Positions 18,611-21,914 of a stretch of 64,000 nucleotides of DNA are shown in pieces (within the stretch, counting starts at the first letter, position 1; the number at the start of each line of letters is the position of its first letter). The position numbers and the translations under genes are program-made. Under the pieces are notes generated by a model. That model saw only the letters and a program-made list of their open reading frames with translations, was not told the DNA's origin and made no database searches. Source of the stretch: Alphaproteobacteria bacterium (lineage in GTDB: Bacteria; Pseudomonadota; Alphaproteobacteria; Rickettsiales; JABSSG01). The stretch is taken from the NCBI GenBank assembly GCA_030431375.1, contig JAUIIY010000001.1, positions 183,280-247,279 on the forward strand. Reading direction: 5' to 3'.

Positions 18611-19621
18611 ATGATATTTGATAATGTCCATAAAAAGTTTATGAGAGTCTTTGTAAGCGGAACGCTTGGTCTTGTTGGGAGAGCTTTAGTTGATTACTTA
18701 AAGGAAAGAAGGATTTCTTGCGTCACTGCTGATATCAGGTCTCCTATAGGGCAATCGGATCATATCAACATATGCGAAAAGGAAAAACTTCAAGCCGTTA
18801 TAAGTAATTGCGATGGAGTTATACACTTAGCAGCGGTGTCACGAATTGCTTGGGGAGAGCAGGCTCCTAAGGTTTGTGACATGATAAATATAATGGGCAC
18901 AAAAAACATTCTAGATGCTTGTATAAATGCCCCAAAAAAACCTTGGCTGGTCTTTGCAAGCAGTCGTGAAGTATACGGTCAACAAGAAACCTTTCCAATT
19001 AAAGAGGAGTGCACTTTCAACCCTAGAAATGTGTATGCAAAATCAAAGCTTGCTGCCGAAAAACTTGTTGAAGAAGCTTCTAATAATGGTCTTAGGGCTT
19101 TTATTGCAAGATTCTCAAACGTATATGGTGGTATGAATGACCATCGTGACAGAGTGGTGCCAGCCTTTTGTATAAATGCCATTAATAATGATCCTTTAAG
19201 GATAGATGGTGCTGATTGTATATATGACTTTACTCATATTAACGATGTGGTAGAGGGAATATTTAAAATTATTTCATTTATCACTTTCGAAAGATATTCA
19301 TATATTCCAAAAGTTCACTTTACAACAGGAAAACCTACTTCGCTTTTGGAGCTAGCTGAAAAGATTATAGCTTGTACCGGAAGCAATGCGCAACTTGATA
19401 TTAAAGAAGCCAGGCCTTATAGCACCCATAAATTTTATGGTGATAATACAAAAGCAAAAGAATTACTTAATTGGTCACCTCAAGTACCCATTGACGTTGG
19501 TATAAAAAAATTTATCACAGACTTGAAAACAACTAATAAAAGTCAGGCTATTTATAATAATAAATTTGTATTTGAGAATGAGAATTTTAAAAGTTATTCA
19601 TGGTTACCCTCCTCGATATAG
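18611..19621 (+). CDS. NAD-dependent epimerase/dehydratase (extended SDR)
   Basis: 336 aa; VFVSGTLGLVGRAL (GxxGxxG), SSREVYG and YAKSK (YxxxK). The likely true start is MRVFVSG at 18641. Confidence 0.85.
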   Translation: MIFDNVHKKFMRVFVSGTLGLVGRALVDYLKERRISCVTADIRSPIGQSDHINICEKEKLQAVISNCDGVIHLAAVSRIAWGEQAPKVCDMINIMGTKNILDACINAPKKPWLVFASSREVYGQQETFPIKEECTFNPRNVYAKSKLAAEKLVEEASNNGLRAFIARFSNVYGGMNDHRDRVVPAFCINAINNDPLRIDGADCIYDFTHINDVVEGIFKIISFITFERYSYIPKVHFTTGKPTSLLELAEKIIACTGSNAQLDIKEARPYSTHKFYGDNTKAKELLNWSPQVPIDVGIKKFITDLKTTNKSQAIYNNKFVFENENFKSYSWLPSSI

Positions 19622-21914
19622 CGCAGGTTCGGAGGTGTATAGCCAACATCTAGCACACGAACTTGCAAACTTTCATGACGTTCAAGTTTTTACCAGGCAA
19701 GAGAATAGTTTTATAGAAGATTATCATCTTTCTACAGAATTAGACCATTTAGACCCCAGAATTCTTATAAATATAATTAATGTTCCTAGAGTAAAATATC
19801 GAGATCAGTATATACATGCACCAGTAGAGGAATATTTTCGGAATATACTTAATAAATTTAACCCACATATAGTGCATTTCGGACACCTTAACCATTTATC
19901 TATAAACCTCCCTAAAATCGCTAAAGAGCTAGGCGTATTAACATTCATGACTTTACATGATTATTGGCTCCTCTGCCCACGTGGACAATTCGTTCAAAGG
20001 AATTCTCAATCTCCCTGGGACTTTTGCAAAGGGCAGGTAAATATCAAATGTGCAAAACAGTGCTATAGTGGGTCGTTTTCAGGGGATTCTGCTACCGAAG
20101 AAAAAGAAACTAAATTCAGAGAAAAGTGGATTGAGAATAGAATGCTTAAAGCACGAGGTGTGACAAATTACATAGATCATTTTGTAGCCCCTTCCAAATA
20201 TTTAAAAGAAAAGTTTTGTAATAGCTATAAGAAAGAAATAAACAAAAAAATCTCATTTTTAGACTATGGATTTAATCTAACTTATTTGATGGATAGAAGA
20301 AGAAACTCTGAGAAAGAATTTGTTTTTGGATATATCGGCACCCATACTCCCCAAAAAGGTATACAATTTTTACTACAGGCTTTTGATCTACTCAAAACTA
20401 AAAAAAACATAAAACTTAGGATATGGGGTTATTCTAAAGAAGATACACCTGCGCTGGAACTCATCCAACATACTTTAAAACAAAAGAATAATGTAGAGTG
20501 GAAGGAGGGATATAAAAATGAAGATATTATCGATAAGGTATTCAATAATATCGACGTTTTAATAGTGCCTTCTATTTGGGAAGAAAATTCTCCTTTAGTT
20601 ATCCACGAAGCTCAGCAAGCACGTATTCCCGTAATTACCGCCGATATTGGTGGGATGAAAGAATATGTTAAACACATGTTTAATGGATTATTGTTTAAGT
20701 TCAGAGACACAGCCGACTTATCACAAAAAATGCAAATGTTAGTTGATGATCCAACTCTTGCTATAAATCTGGGGGAAAAAGGATACTTATATAGTGTGAA
20801 CGGTAATATACCTGATATCCGAACTCATGCCAAAAAAATAGAAAAACTCTATCTAGAAACTGCTAAAAAACTTAAGAAGCTAATTCCTACTAAACCAGGA
20901 CCTTGGCGAATTACATTCGATACAAACCCTGATCATTGTAACTATAATTGTATTATGTGTGAATGCTTCTCACCATATAGTAAAACAAAAGAAGAAAGAG
21001 TAAAAGCTGGTATAAAAAAAAGGGTGATGGATATATCGGCAATCGAGAAAATACTTAGAGAATCGATCGGATCTCCATTGGAAGAAATTATTCCCTCCAC
21101 TATGGGAGAACCTCTTCTATATAAAAATTTCGAAAGAATAATTGAGCTATGTCACGCTTATAACTTAAAATTAAATCTAACAACAAATGGTTCTTTCCCG
21201 ATAAAAGGGGCTAAGAAATGGTCTGAGCTTCTTATTCCTGTTTGCTCGGATATTAAAATTTCAATCAACGGAGCATCCGAAGCTATTAACCAAAAAATAA
21301 TGGTAGGGTCGAAATGGAATGATATGCTATCTAACATTAAGACGCTGTTATCATATAGAGATAATTATCCTAAGCATAAAAATAGGTGCCGTGTTACTTT
21401 TCAAGTTACTTTTTTGGAAACTAATTCTAACGAGCTCATTAATATATTGAAATTAGCAATCTCTCTAGGGGTAGATAGAGTAAAGGGTCATCATTTATGG
21501 GCTCATTTCAAAGAGATAGAAAACTTATCGATGCGACGAAATAGCGAAGTTATTAATAAGTGGAATAAAATAGTAAGTAAACTCCACAAAGTTGCTGAAC
21601 AAAATCTTTTGCCAAACGGTAAAAAAATCAAATTGGAAAATTTTCATCCCTTGGATGAGAATGCCATCTCGGATATAGCTAAAGGTGGGGCTTGCCCTTT
21701 TTTAGGAAGAGAGGCATGGATTAGCGCTGAAGGAATTTTTAGCCCTTGTTGTGCACCAGATAAGTTAAGAAAATCACTAGGTGATTTTGGCTATATCAAC
21801 TCACAGACCATCCAAGATATATGGATGAGTGATAAATACAGACAACTCAGAAAAAACTTTAACCACCACAAGTTGTGCATATCGTGCAACATGAGAAAAC
21901 CATTATCGAGTTAA
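19566..21914 (+). CDS. Fusion protein: GT-B (GT4-like) glycosyltransferase + radical SAM/SPASM domain
   Basis: 782 aa. The N-terminal half has [38 protein letters not shown] (CX3CX2C) lies at nt 20937-20960, and the Cys-rich C-terminus reads CPF..SPCCAP..CISCN. The likely start is MRILKV at 19578. Confidence 0.8.
   Translation: [782 protein letters not shown]

What the first reader, a model, noticed from the sequence alone, without database searches (positions are those of the whole stretch)
19566..21914. In-frame fusion of a glycosyltransferase with a radical SAM/SPASM enzyme
This is a single 782-aa ORF.
- Residues ~5-430 look like a GT-B/GT4 glycosyltransferase ([39 protein letters not shown], the E-x7-E region).
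- After a Lys-rich linker, CNYNCIMC (residues 458-465, nt 20937-20960) is a canonical CX3CX2C [4Fe-4S]/SAM motif.
- GEPLL and LTTNGS follow, then a C-terminal Cys cluster (GGACPF...SPCCAP...CISCN) typical of SPASM auxiliary-cluster domains.

I am not aware of a characterised GT-rSAM/SPASM fusion. The fusion implies that radical chemistry and glycosyl transfer act on the same substrate, either sugar C-H activation or epimerisation, or modification of a peptide or amino-acid acceptor.
Basis: partly seen in the sequence, partly recalled or inferred. Interest (0 to 1): 0.7.

Follow-up and report, generated by a model that had tools for sequence, protein, structure and literature searches.

The report
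Known glycosyltransferase–radical SAM fusion enzyme
This is a real, intact gene for a two-in-one enzyme (sugar-transferase plus radical SAM) that was already described as WD0613/UC3 of Wolbachia phage WO and of Rickettsia plasmids, occurs in hundreds of bacterial species, and still has no known product.

Summary
A single ORF (19566–21914; the real start is probably ATG 19578, giving 778 aa) encodes a GT4/GT-B glycosyltransferase joined by a ~12-residue linker to a radical SAM domain with a C-terminal Cys-rich domain.

It is not an artefact:
- At least 577 species-representative genomes from many phyla encode the same full-length architecture.
- Published proteomics detected the Wolbachia ortholog.

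It is not new as an architecture. It is the ortholog (56% identity, full length) of WD0613/UC3 of the prophage WO "Undecim Cluster" and of Rickettsia plasmid genes. Papers from 2015 and 2022 explicitly describe that protein as a GT/radical-SAM fusion. No biochemical characterisation was found.

- The "SPASM" domain is really a BtrN-like twitch domain with one auxiliary cluster.
- The universal module is SDR + GT–rSAM + WG-repeat/O-methyltransferase.
- Free-living genomes add a histidine phosphatase. Giant fusions add a GHMP kinase, an O-methyltransferase or a carbamoyltransferase. This points to a small-molecule glycoside pathway, not peptide chemistry.
- Here the seven-gene endosymbiont cassette sits on a 17.4-kb tRNA-Arg integrative island in an uncultured Rickettsiales genome.

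Verdict: a new member of a known but uncharacterised family.

The parts
19578..21914 (+). GT4-radical SAM(twitch) fusion gene, 778 aa from ATG 19578. The mechanical ORF starts at TTG 19566. Ortholog of Wolbachia WD0613/UC3.
   Evidence: It is 56% identical over its full length to the phage WO and Rickettsia plasmid proteins.
19578..20870 (+). GT-B / GT4 glycosyltransferase domain (residues 1-431). The E-x7-E motif lies at nt 20583-20609 (E336...E344).
   Evidence: Pfam. AF2 model pLDDT 86.5. Foldseek best matches are MshA (TMt 0.78), BshA (0.76) and sucrose-phosphate synthase (0.75). Invariant residues are listed.
19974..20063 (+). Four invariant Cys (C133, C150, C158, C162) in an insert of the GT N-domain. 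Probably a structural metal site.
   Evidence: Invariant in 23 fused homologs and also in a stand-alone ExpE7-like GT4 from Neorhizobium. AF2 confidence is low here. Metal binding is inferred.
20871..20906 (+). Short Lys-rich linker (residues ~432-443).
   Evidence: The natural split forms in Symbiodolus and Arsenophonus break exactly here.
20907..21674 (+). Radical SAM core. CX3CX2C lies at nt 20937-20960 (C454, C458, C461), followed by the GEPL and NLTTNG motifs.
   Evidence: Pfam, translation, invariant residues. Foldseek neighbours are BlsE, SuiB, DesII, viperin and BtrN.
21675..21914 (+). Twitch-type auxiliary-cluster domain. C706 (nt 21693), C724/C725, C767 and C770 (nt 21885).
   Evidence: The Pfam SPASM model hits it, but only CX12GX4C plus CX2C are conserved. 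A profile search puts BtrN first (E=3.8e-5), with its C169/C187/C232/C235 aligned to these four Cys.
18611..19621 (+). Extended-SDR NAD-dependent epimerase/dehydratase (UC2/WD0612 homolog). It overlaps the fusion gene by 44 nt.
   Evidence: It lies immediately upstream in 58 of 84 loci and is fused to GT-rSAM in P0119 and, by ORF length, in L048, L055 and L063.
21918..23504 (+). WG-repeat + O-methyltransferase-like protein (UC4/WD0614 homolog). The SAM-binding loop is degenerate in this copy.
   Evidence: It lies immediately downstream in 81 of 84 loci and is fused to GT-rSAM in P0252 and P0257.
23497..24486 (+). PhyH-family Fe(II)/2-oxoglutarate dioxygenase (UC5/WD0615 homolog).
   Evidence: Confined mainly to the endosymbiont clade (20 of 84 loci).
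16907..18574 (-). ABC exporter with fused permease and ATPase (UC6/WD0616 homolog).
15848..16906 (-). GntG-family PLP-dependent (threonine-type) aldolase 1 (UC7/WD0617 homolog).
   Evidence: NCBIfam NF041359 scores 251 bits against a cut-off of 230. 57% identical to UC7.
14818..15858 (-). GntG-family PLP-dependent aldolase 2 (UC8/WD0618 homolog).
   Evidence: NCBIfam NF041359 scores 299 bits against a cut-off of 230. 59% identical to UC8.
13454..14602 (+). Tyrosine integrase of the island.
   Evidence: Pfam Phage_integrase and Arm-DNA-bind_3.
13268..13313 (.). 46-bp direct repeat (att site), identical to the 3' half of tRNA-Arg.
30692..30768 (-). tRNA-Arg(CCT). Its 3' half (30692-30737) is the second copy of the 46-bp repeat and marks the other end of the ~17.4-kb island.
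24968..26335 (-). 455-aa ORF of unknown function inside the island.
   Evidence: No hit in Pfam, NCBIfam or PADLOC. No homolog next to the fusion in the other loci.
26910..27716 (+). IS481-like transposase remnant (HTH region) inside the island.
   Evidence: 95 bits, below the cut-off of 224.

Best explanation
The gene encodes a genuine bifunctional enzyme, the ortholog of Wolbachia WD0613/UC3.

**Anatomy (shown by sequence and model).** The N-terminal half is a retaining-type GT4 (GT-B) glycosyltransferase of the ExpE7-like subfamily. The C-terminal half is a radical SAM enzyme with one SAM-binding [4Fe-4S] cluster (C454/C458/C461). It also has one BtrN-like 'twitch' auxiliary cluster (C706/C724/C767/C770).

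**Pathway context (shown by comparative genomics).** It works in one pathway with the translationally coupled upstream SDR and the downstream WG-repeat/O-methyltransferase-like protein. In other lineages the same pathway includes a histidine phosphatase, a GHMP kinase, a carbamoyltransferase or a PhyH dioxygenase. That enzyme set is typical of tailoring a small soluble glycoside or cyclitol.

**Proposed mechanism (inferred).**
1. The SDR sets the identity of a UDP-sugar, or later reduces a keto intermediate.
2. The GT domain transfers the sugar to a small acceptor, probably a phosphorylated one, as MshA and sucrose-phosphate synthase do.
3. The tethered rSAM domain abstracts a hydrogen from a carbinol C-H of the sugar or cyclitol ring. 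The result is oxidation, dehydration or epimerisation, as in BtrN, DesII, BlsE and AprD4. The fully Cys-ligated auxiliary cluster handles the electron.
4. The order of steps 2 and 3 is not determined.

**Endosymbiont version.** In this window PhyH, two GntG-type aldolases and an ABC exporter extend the pathway to an exported product. The whole seven-gene cassette is mobile. Here it sits on a tRNA-Arg integrative island; elsewhere it sits on prophage WO or on plasmids.
For: **Real, intact fusion.** ORF and motifs. Four Pfam domains above cut-off. All family-invariant residues are present. The identical protein occurs in an independent assembly.

**Orthology to WD0613/UC3.** 56% identity at full length to phage WO and Rickettsia plasmid proteins. 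UC2-UC8 homologs are all present. Literature descriptions and proteomic detection.

**Conservation.** At least 120 full-length hits. At least 577 species genomes.

**Twitch, not SPASM.** Cys pattern. BtrN is the top PDB profile hit, with ligand-for-ligand Cys alignment.

**Sugar or nucleotide-directed rSAM neighbours.** BlsE has the best TM-score (0.68/0.71); DesII, viperin and BtrN also appear.

**GT neighbours with small or phosphorylated acceptors.** MshA, sucrose-phosphate synthase, BshA and GlgM.

**Pathway partners.** WG/MT is adjacent in 81 of 84 loci and the SDR in 58 of 84. A histidine phosphatase follows in many free-living loci. Rosetta-stone fusions exist: SDR+GT+rSAM (P0119), GHMP kinase+GT+rSAM, WG/OMT+kinase+GT+rSAM, and phosphatase+carbamoyltransferase+GT+rSAM+WG.

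**Mobile island.** 46-bp att repeats, tRNA-Arg and an integrase.
Against: - No member has been characterised biochemically. Donor, acceptor, product and the order of the two reactions are all inferred.
- The top Foldseek E-values for the rSAM half belong to peptide-modifying enzymes (SuiB, SkfB, PqqE, anSME), so structure alone does not separate sugar from peptide substrates.
- Sequence similarity to BtrN is confined to the twitch region.
- No NCBIfam model reaches its cut-off.
- The literature interprets the cluster as envelope polysaccharide or LPS related.
- The methyltransferase partner in the endosymbiont clade has a degenerate SAM-binding loop. The pathway here may therefore differ from the free-living one.
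Confidence: 0.55

Rival explanations
1. Envelope polysaccharide or LPS modification, which is the reading given in the Wolbachia literature. The GT domain adds a sugar to an exopolysaccharide or lipid-linked glycan, as ExpE7 does in galactoglucan synthesis. The rSAM domain then modifies that glycan.
For: - The GT half belongs to the ExpE7-like GT4 group. Its closest stand-alone relatives sit on rhizobial megaplasmids.
- PglA and other glycan GTs are among the structural matches.
- The Wolbachia cluster also carries GlmU-like and UDP-glucose 6-dehydrogenase genes.
Against: - No flippase, polymerase, chain-length or priming-transferase family appears among the recurrent neighbour clusters across 84 loci.
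- The module often stands alone as 3-5 genes.
- The linked enzymes (histidine phosphatase, GHMP kinase, small-molecule-type OMT, carbamoyltransferase) fit soluble intermediates better.
- UC1, UC9, UC10 and UC11 are absent here.
Confidence: 0.2
2. High-carbon-sugar or nucleoside-type chemistry. The rSAM domain forms a C-C bond between two sugar-derived units, following the logic of tunicamycin TunB. The GT, SDR, MT-like protein, phosphatase and ABC exporter would play the roles of TunD, TunA/F, TunM, TunG and TunIJ. In endosymbionts the aldolases would add a glycine-derived unit.
For: - The enzyme inventory resembles the tun cluster, which has an rSAM, a glycosyltransferase, a putative SAM-dependent MT and an ABC exporter (PMC6105854). 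The roles assigned to the remaining tun genes are from my memory.
- Two GntG-family aldolases and a 2OG dioxygenase accompany the fusion in endosymbionts.
- Nucleotide-directed rSAMs (viperin, BlsE, AbmM) are structural neighbours.
Against: - The resemblance is one of inventory only. Homology to the Tun proteins could not be tested here.
- A fully Cys-ligated BtrN-like auxiliary cluster fits redox chemistry on a carbinol better.
- The aldolases, PhyH and ABC exporter are missing from most free-living loci, so they are not part of the ancestral chemistry.
Confidence: 0.1
3. Peptide or protein modification. A SPASM-type RiPP maturase is fused to a glycosyltransferase and produces a glycosylated, radical-modified peptide.
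For: - Pfam's SPASM model hits the C-terminus.
- SuiB, SkfB, PqqE, anSME and EpeE are strong structural matches.
- NCBIfam gives weak hits to maturase families.
Against: - Only 4-5 conserved Cys are present, so the 7-Cys SPASM motif is not met.
- The ~12-residue linker leaves no room for an RRE domain.
- The core genes overlap or abut: a 44-nt overlap, a 3-nt gap and an 8-nt overlap. There is no space for a precursor gene.
- No peptide-related partner (protease, PqqD-like protein, leader peptidase) is conserved.
Confidence: 0.06
4. Assembly or frameshift artefact, or a decaying pseudogene, that joins two separate genes.
For: Rare split forms exist. Symbiodolus and three Arsenophonus plasmids carry separate GT and rSAM ORFs that break at the linker.
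Against: - The same ~778-aa architecture occurs in at least 577 species genomes from many phyla.
- The identical protein occurs in an independent Logan assembly.
- All invariant residues are retained.
- Published proteomics detected peptides of the Wolbachia ortholog.
Confidence: 0.01

Closest known systems
WD0613 / UC3 of the prophage WO 'Undecim Cluster' (Wolbachia wMel), with its homologs on Rickettsia plasmids (pREIS2, pRA1 and the plasmid of the R. endosymbiont of Ixodes pacificus)
   Same: - Same length and domain order, 56% identity over the full length.
- Same neighbours, UC2-UC8.
- The same 44-nt overlap with the upstream SDR.
- Mobile-element context.
   Different: - Here the cassette is on a tRNA-Arg integrative island with its own tyrosine integrase, not on a prophage or plasmid.
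- The ABC exporter and the two aldolase genes are inverted and placed upstream. The same arrangement occurs in a Midichloriaceae MAG (L007) and a Rickettsia MAG (L008).
- UC1 and UC9-11 are absent, as on the plasmids.
- The function of the reference protein is itself unknown.
BtrN (2-deoxy-scyllo-inosamine dehydrogenase, butirosin pathway; PDB 4M7S/4M7T)
   Same: - Radical SAM enzyme with a twitch domain.
- It is the top PDB profile hit (E=3.8e-5). C169, C187, C232 and C235 of 4M7S align one-to-one with C706, C724, C767 and C770. That these four are the auxiliary-cluster ligands is from my memory of the structure paper.
- It is also a structural match (TMt 0.62).
- It acts on a carbinol C-H of a cyclitol in a glycoside pathway (my knowledge of the literature).
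   Different: - Similarity is significant only in the twitch region.
- BtrN is stand-alone, about 250 aa, and not fused to a GT.
- No 2-deoxystreptamine pathway genes are present here.
- It is not a family member.
BlsE (radical SAM enzyme acting on cytosylglucuronic acid, blasticidin S pathway; PDB 7VOB) and DesII (8HZV)
   Same: - BlsE gives the best TM-score in both directions for the rSAM half (0.68/0.71, rmsd 4.4 Å). DesII is also near the top.
- Both modify a sugar ring of a glycoside or NDP-sugar by H-abstraction next to a hydroxyl. For BlsE see PMC3715490.
   Different: - Sequence identity is 11-14%.
- Neither is fused to a GT.
- Their substrates are nucleoside or TDP-sugars in actinomycete antibiotic clusters.
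MshA, BshA and sucrose-phosphate synthase (retaining GT4 enzymes with small soluble acceptors)
   Same: - They are the best structural matches of the GT half (TMt 0.75-0.78).
- The E-x7-E motif is shared.
- MshA and SPS use phosphorylated acceptors and are followed by a phosphatase step (my knowledge). This parallels the histidine phosphatase linked to this family.
   Different: - Only 16-18% identity.
- None of the top matches is a close sequence relative carrying the Cys4 insert, which is shared instead with an ExpE7-like GT4.
- None is fused to an rSAM domain.

Membership tests
GT4 / GT-B glycosyltransferase (Pfam Glyco_transf_4 + Glycos_transf_1) | Two-Rossmann-domain GT-B fold, with matches to the family models above their cut-offs | tested here: met
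   (105.5 bits against 26.4; 47.1 against 28.5). AF2 model. Foldseek TMt up to 0.78 to MshA and BshA.
GT4 / GT-B glycosyltransferase (Pfam Glyco_transf_4 + Glycos_transf_1) | E-x7-E motif in the C-terminal domain | tested here: met
   E336 and E344 are invariant in 23 homologs and in a stand-alone relative.
GT4 / GT-B glycosyltransferase (Pfam Glyco_transf_4 + Glycos_transf_1) | Nucleotide-sugar-dependent glycosyl transfer activity | not testable with these tools
   Needs an enzyme assay.
Radical SAM superfamily | CX3CX2C motif that binds the SAM-cleaving [4Fe-4S] cluster | tested here: met
   CNYNCIMC at nt 20937-20960. C454/C458/C461 are invariant.
Radical SAM superfamily | Partial TIM-barrel core fold with a match to the family model | tested here: met
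   Pfam scores 45.4 bits against 29.5. Foldseek probability is 1.0 to many rSAM structures.
Radical SAM superfamily | Reductive cleavage of SAM to the 5'-deoxyadenosyl radical | not testable with these tools
   Needs anaerobic biochemistry.
SPASM domain (two auxiliary [4Fe-4S] clusters) | Match to the Pfam SPASM model | tested here: met
   43.9 bits against 21.5. The model also recognises truncated versions.
SPASM domain (two auxiliary [4Fe-4S] clusters) | Seven-Cys motif CX9-15GX4C...CX2CX5CX3C...C (definition from my knowledge of the Grell, Goldman and Drennan 2015 review, which could not be opened) | tested here: not met
   Only CX12GX4C (C706...G719...C724) and CX2C (C767, C770) are conserved. 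There is no CX2CX5CX3C block.
Twitch domain (one auxiliary cluster, BtrN type) | Four Cys in the spacing C-x17-C...C-x2-C, alignable to the BtrN auxiliary-cluster Cys positions | tested here: met
   Profile against PDB: BtrN is the top hit (E=3.8e-5), and its C169/C187/C232/C235 align to C706/C724/C767/C770.
Twitch domain (one auxiliary cluster, BtrN type) | Beta-hairpin between the first two Cys | tested here: met
   AF2 strands at 712-715 and 720-722.
Twitch domain (one auxiliary cluster, BtrN type) | Actual binding of one auxiliary Fe-S cluster | not testable with these tools
   Needs Fe/S quantification, EPR or Mössbauer.
Undecim Cluster UC3 (WD0613) orthologous group | Full-length homology to WD0613 with the same domain order | tested here: met
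   56% identity, 100% coverage.
Undecim Cluster UC3 (WD0613) orthologous group | Neighbourhood of WD0612-WD0618 homologs | tested here: met
   All seven are present. The order is rearranged, with the ABC exporter and aldolases inverted and upstream.
Undecim Cluster UC3 (WD0613) orthologous group | Complete eleven-gene cluster (UC1, UC9-UC11) associated with prophage WO | tested here: not met
   No UC1, UC9, UC10 or UC11 homolog in the 64-kb window. The carrier is a tRNA-Arg island. This corresponds to the seven-gene 'plasmid-type' core.
RiPP radical SAM maturase | RRE (peptide-recognition) domain, or an adjacent precursor-peptide gene | tested here: not met
   A ~12-residue linker precedes the rSAM core. 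The core genes overlap or abut. No conserved peptide-type partner was found. ORFs under 90 aa in other loci were not searched systematically.
BtrN / 2-deoxystreptamine aminoglycoside pathway | Global sequence membership and co-occurrence with 2-DOS genes (inosose synthase, aminotransferase) | tested here: not met
   Similarity is limited to the twitch region. No such genes are in the island. In the Cull 2022 paper on the R. buchneri aminoglycoside cluster, the main text contains neither 'radical SAM' nor 'glycosyltransferase'.
Known anti-phage defence systems (PADLOC) | Match to a defence-system protein model beyond generic domain similarity | tested here: not met
   Only partial rSAM-core similarity to pVip (41.8 bits) and generic ABC ATPase hits.

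The most novel reading that the evidence does not exclude
The SDR + GT4-rSAM(twitch) + WG/OMT module makes a still-undescribed modified glycoside or cyclitol. The modification could give a keto, deoxy, epimerised or C-C-extended sugar. The module is spread across hundreds of bacterial species and also occurs as giant multi-domain fusion proteins. In intracellular symbionts (Wolbachia, Rickettsia, Midichloriaceae, Arsenophonus, Cardinium and this Rickettsiales genome) the module has been rebuilt, with a dioxygenase, two GntG-type aldolases and an ABC exporter, into a pathway for an exported metabolite. 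That metabolite would act on the host or on competitors. The cassette hops between a prophage, plasmids and a tRNA-Arg integrative island.
Probability: 0.4. Interest if true: 0.75.

Novelty: new member of a known kind. Interest (0 to 1): 0.4.

Why it matters
The architecture has been noticed before, but nobody knows what it makes. It is one of the most widely exchanged cargo cassettes among arthropod endosymbionts: phage WO, Rickettsia and Arsenophonus plasmids, and now a tRNA-Arg island. It is highly expressed in Wolbachia.

This analysis turns an annotation curiosity into a testable enzymology problem in four ways:
- It narrows the rSAM half to a BtrN-type one-cluster twitch enzyme.
- It defines the universal three-gene module.
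- It identifies phosphatase, kinase and carbamoyltransferase partners.
- It shows that the module exists in tractable free-living bacteria such as Myxococcus, Sorangium and Halomonas.

Identifying the product could reveal a new sugar-modifying radical reaction. It could also reveal a metabolite relevant to symbiont–host interaction.

Tried and rejected
- **R. buchneri aminoglycoside cluster.** My first lead from memory was that the fusion belonged to this cluster (Cull 2022). The paper's main text contains neither 'radical SAM' nor 'glycosyltransferase', and its gene table shows different genes. I dropped the lead. The relevant literature is the Undecim Cluster work instead.
- **NCBIfam.** No curated family reaches its cut-off for the fusion. 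The best, W_rSAM_matur, scores 81 bits against 380.
- **Single-sequence PDB search of the rSAM half.** Nothing significant came back. The profile search was needed.
- **Model coordinates.** Not exposed to scripts, so Cys-Cys distances, domain interface and PAE could not be examined.
- **Organism name.** Exact-sequence look-ups gave none. The genome-contig scan found no 100% match. Taxonomy was inferred from UvrB instead.
- **Promoter and terminator scan.** Counts equal the shuffled expectation, so it is uninformative in this AT-rich DNA.
- **PADLOC.** No defence-system membership.
- **Rfam.** No riboswitch or other regulatory RNA near the operon.
- **Literature.** Searches for a characterised GT-rSAM fusion found none. 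The twitch/SPASM review could not be opened.
- **Tunicamycin comparison.** Only gene-inventory resemblance could be checked, not homology.
- **GHMP kinase.** No homolog was found in the 84 bacterial loci.

Full report
**1. The observation**

The ORF 19566..21914 (+) exists as a single 782-codon frame from a TTG. Every homolog begins at the [12 protein letters not shown]-type N-terminus, and an ATG lies at 19578. The protein is therefore most likely 778 aa, and that exact 778-aa sequence is in the public protein collection.

Pfam finds four domains, all above their gathering cut-offs: Glyco_transf_4, Glycos_transf_1, Radical_SAM and SPASM. The linker reads ...[18 protein letters not shown]....

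An AlphaFold2 model built on 23 homologs is confident overall (pLDDT 86.5, pTM 0.84). It shows a GT-B fold ending with a helix at 414-431 and the first radical-SAM strand at 444-448. The linker is therefore only about 12 residues long.

**2. Not an artefact, and not new as an architecture**

A protein search returned at least 120 full-length relatives (49-63% identity, about 100% coverage, about 778 aa) with the same Pfam architecture. They include Rickettsia, Wolbachia, Cardinium, Midichloriaceae, Phycorickettsia and a myxobacterium.

The 80 loci it returned all match at essentially full length. They span Rickettsiales, Myxococcota, Planctomycetota, Latescibacterota, beta- and gamma-proteobacteria, cyanobacteria (Hormoscilla), Verrucomicrobia, Gemmatimonadota and Bacteroidota. 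An independent assembly (Logan, ERR3428547) carries the identical protein with the same neighbours.

The annotated records show that this is the ortholog (56% identity over the full length) of two groups of genes:
- The phage WO gene annotated 'glycosyl transferase, group 1 family protein / moaA/nifB/pqqE family protein'.
- Genes on Rickettsia plasmids.

Two papers describe that gene, WD0613:
- Baldridge et al. 2015 (PMC4701759) analysed WD0613 as an ExpE7-like GT1 + radical SAM + SPASM protein. They detected 22 peptides of it in Wolbachia wStr, and noted WD0612-0614 synteny in free-living bacteria.
- Bordenstein & Bordenstein 2022 (PMC9203015) named WD0611-WD0621 the 'Undecim Cluster'. [quoted passage not shown]

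Both papers predict function from annotation only. My literature searches found no biochemical characterisation.

**3. Context in this window**

The window's UvrB is 77% identical to that of a 'Rickettsiales bacterium' MAG and 66-68% identical to Rickettsiaceae and Jidaibacter. The host is therefore an uncultured Rickettsiales.

All seven genes of the 'plasmid-type' core (UC2-UC8) are present:

| Gene | Coordinates | Strand |
|---|---|---|
| SDR | 18611-19621 | + |
| GT-rSAM | 19578-21914 | + |
| WG-repeat/OMT-like | 21918-23504 | + |
| PhyH dioxygenase | 23497-24486 | + |
| ABC exporter | 16907-18574 | − |
| GntG-family aldolase 1 | 15848-16906 | − |
| GntG-family aldolase 2 | 14818-15858 | − |

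UC1 and UC9-11 are absent.

The plus-strand core genes overlap or abut: a 44-nt overlap, a 3-nt gap and an 8-nt overlap. The 44-nt SDR/GT overlap is also present in phage WO.

The cassette lies between two copies of a perfect 46-bp direct repeat, at 13268-13313 and 30692-30737. The second copy is the 3' half of tRNA-Arg(CCT). A tyrosine integrase sits next to the first copy. In this genome the cassette therefore rides on a ~17.4-kb tRNA-targeted integrative island. This carrier type is distinct from the prophage (Wolbachia) and the plasmids (Rickettsia, Arsenophonus).

**4. Anatomy of the protein**

*GT half.* E336 and E344 (E-x7-E), K260 and other GT4 hallmarks are invariant. The best structural matches are retaining GT4 enzymes with small soluble acceptors, several of them phosphorylated:
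- MshA (TMt 0.78)
- BshA (TMt 0.76)
- Sucrose-phosphate synthase (TMt 0.75)
- GlgM

Four invariant Cys (C133, C150, C158, C162) lie in a low-confidence insert. They are also conserved in a stand-alone ExpE7-like GT4 from Neorhizobium. They are therefore a feature of the subfamily, probably a structural metal site, and not a product of the fusion.

*rSAM half.* C454/C458/C461, GEPL and NLTTNG are invariant. In the C-terminal domain only two elements are conserved: C706-x12-G-x4-C724(C725), and C767-x2-C770. The CX2CX5CX3C block of canonical SPASM domains is absent.

A profile of the rSAM half searched against PDB sequences puts BtrN first (E=3.8e-5). BtrN's C169, C187, C232 and C235 align one-to-one with C706, C724, C767 and C770. 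From my memory of the structure paper, those four are BtrN's auxiliary-cluster ligands. The domain is therefore a twitch-type, single-auxiliary-cluster domain.

Foldseek on a separate model of this half (pLDDT 87.2) gave two kinds of neighbour:
- Enzymes acting on sugars or nucleotides: BlsE (best TM-score, 0.68/0.71), DesII, viperin, BtrN and AbmM.
- Enzymes acting on peptides: SuiB, SkfB, PqqE, anSME and EpeE.

No solved structure spans both halves.

**5. Comparative genomics: which pathway?**

I ran tblastn with the window's neighbour proteins against all 84 loci held at that point:

| Neighbour | Loci with a match (of 84) |
|---|---|
| WG/OMT gene (immediately downstream) | 81 |
| SDR (immediately upstream) | 58 |
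| PhyH | 20 |
| ABC exporter | 18 |
| Aldolases | 17 |

PhyH, the ABC exporter and the aldolases occur essentially only in the endosymbiont clade.

De novo clustering of neighbouring ORFs found one further recurrent partner in free-living genomes: a histidine-phosphatase family protein. It comes as a ~225-aa form and as a ~440-aa form with an extra C-terminal domain. It sits directly after the WG/OMT gene, sometimes followed by a ~237-aa protein of unknown function.

An exhaustive search with the rSAM half found 105 cluster representatives at E≤1e-30. They fall into three groups:
- Fused proteins of about 750-790 aa.
- Full-length stand-alone rSAM proteins of 315-353 aa at 35-49% identity.
- Giant fusions.

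The giant fusions have these domain contents:

| Protein(s) | Domains |
|---|---|
| P0247, P0251 | GHMP kinase + GT4 + rSAM |
| P0252, P0256 | O-methyltransferase + GHMP kinase + GT4 + rSAM |
| P0257 | His-phosphatase-like + carbamoyltransferase + GT4 + rSAM + WG repeats |

The N-terminal ~550 residues of P0252 are homologous to the window's WG/OMT protein along its whole length. An SDR + GT + rSAM triple fusion also exists (P0119). ORFs of 1,039-1,129 aa at the fusion position in L048, L055 and L063 probably have the same architecture.

Conversely, Symbiodolus and three Arsenophonus plasmids carry the two halves as adjacent separate ORFs that break at the linker.

These Rosetta-stone relations place the SDR, GT, rSAM, WG/OMT, phosphatase, kinase and carbamoyltransferase in one pathway. 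The enzyme types are those of small-molecule sugar or cyclitol tailoring.

**6. Most likely mechanism (inferred)**

1. A UDP-sugar is transferred by the GT domain to a small, probably phosphorylated, acceptor. The SDR may first tune the identity of that sugar.
2. The tethered twitch-rSAM domain abstracts H from a carbinol carbon of the sugar or cyclitol. With its fully Cys-ligated auxiliary cluster, it then oxidises, dehydrates or epimerises that position. This is the chemistry of BtrN, DesII, BlsE and AprD4.
3. Alternatively, the SDR may act as the reductase partner of a dehydratase-type rSAM, as AprD3 does for AprD4 (from my own knowledge).
4. Methylation and dephosphorylation finish the free-living product.
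5. The order of the GT and rSAM steps is unresolved.

In the endosymbiont clade the methyltransferase's glycine-rich SAM loop has degenerated: 'ICIGKSS' here, against 'DAGGGxG' in free-living orthologs. The same clade gained PhyH, two aldolases and an exporter. Its product is therefore probably different, and exported.

**7. Rivals**

- **Envelope-polysaccharide role (the literature's reading).** It remains possible. However, polysaccharide-assembly genes do not recur next to the module, and the linked enzymes are of the soluble-intermediate type.
- **RiPP or protein-modification role.** It is unlikely. There is no RRE, no room for a precursor gene, and the SPASM motif is not met.
- **Tunicamycin-like C-C coupling.** This is an attractive analogy of gene inventory only.
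- **Artefact.** This is excluded.

**8. Verdict**

The finding is real and correctly described, apart from two details: the start codon, and twitch rather than SPASM. The fusion is a documented, widely distributed and much-transferred gene family whose chemistry is unknown. The gene in this window is a new, intact member (at most 63% identical to any other) on a new type of carrier.

Interest is moderate. There is little surprise for symbiont genomicists, but this is a well-defined open target for enzymology.

Noticed in passing
window 13268-13313 and 30692-30737 (island 13268-30768): A perfect 46-bp direct repeat, whose second copy is the 3' half of tRNA-Arg(CCT), brackets a ~17.4-kb integrase-bearing island. 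The island carries the whole seven-gene cassette. This carrier differs from the prophage and plasmids reported for the cassette.
   Followed up: yes
window 21918-23504 (WG-repeat/OMT-like); compare L002, L003, L007, L011, L021, L022 with L025-L084: Free-living orthologs keep a canonical class-I methyltransferase SAM loop ((V/I)DAGGGxG followed by LDRPEV). The whole endosymbiont clade, including this window ('IICIGKSSELL'), has a degenerate loop. The methyltransferase may be inactive or repurposed in exactly the clade that gained PhyH, the aldolases and the ABC exporter.
   Followed up: partly
window 19974-20063 (C133, C150, C158, C162 of the GT domain): Four invariant Cys lie in an insert of the GT4 N-domain. 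They are also conserved in a stand-alone ExpE7-like GT4 on a Neorhizobium megaplasmid. They probably form a structural metal site of this GT4 subfamily. AF2 confidence is low there.
   Followed up: partly
L023 9959-12418 (Candidatus Symbiodolus clandestinus); L004 8387-10730 (Arsenophonus plasmid CP132902): These are natural split forms. The GT half (448 and 438 aa) and the rSAM half (357 and 340 aa) are adjacent, separate, intact ORFs that break at the linker. The Arsenophonus gene is not listed as a CDS in the plasmid gene table, so it may be annotated as a pseudogene.
   Followed up: partly
proteins P0247, P0251, P0252, P0256, P0257 (representative library): Giant fusions of 1,318-2,458 aa combine GHMP kinase, O-methyltransferase, His-phosphatase-like, carbamoyltransferase and WG-repeat domains with GT4-rSAM. 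Their source organisms are unknown and might be eukaryotic.
   Followed up: partly
free-living loci, e.g. L084 14013-15335, L061 15046-15723, L043 9609-10322: A histidine-phosphatase family protein recurs directly downstream of the WG/OMT gene. It comes as a ~225-aa form and as a ~440-aa form whose C-terminal extension carries a GGxxxxxLxGRxxxDxD-like motif. A ~237-aa protein with no Pfam match sometimes follows.
   Followed up: partly
window 29880-30033 (+): A group II intron D1-D4 RNA match (Rfam RF02012, 84.7 bits) lies inside the island. No ORF of at least 100 aa (no reverse transcriptase candidate) lies next to it, so it is probably an intron remnant.
   Followed up: no
window 24968-26335 (-): A 455-aa ORF inside the island has no hit in Pfam, NCBIfam or PADLOC and no counterpart next to the fusion in the other loci.
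   Followed up: partly
window 26910-27716 (+): An IS481-like transposase remnant lies inside the island (95 bits, below the family cut-off of 224; HTH domains only). This fits repeated rearrangement of the cassette.
   Followed up: no
L040 (Myxococcaceae MAG): A stand-alone paralog of the rSAM half (ORF of ~393 aa) lies a few genes downstream of the fused gene in the same locus, next to a carbamoyltransferase homolog.
   Followed up: no
window 11099-12775 (-) and 12763-13218 (-): Just outside the island lie a 557-aa ORF with no Pfam match and a stand-alone response-regulator receiver protein.
   Followed up: no
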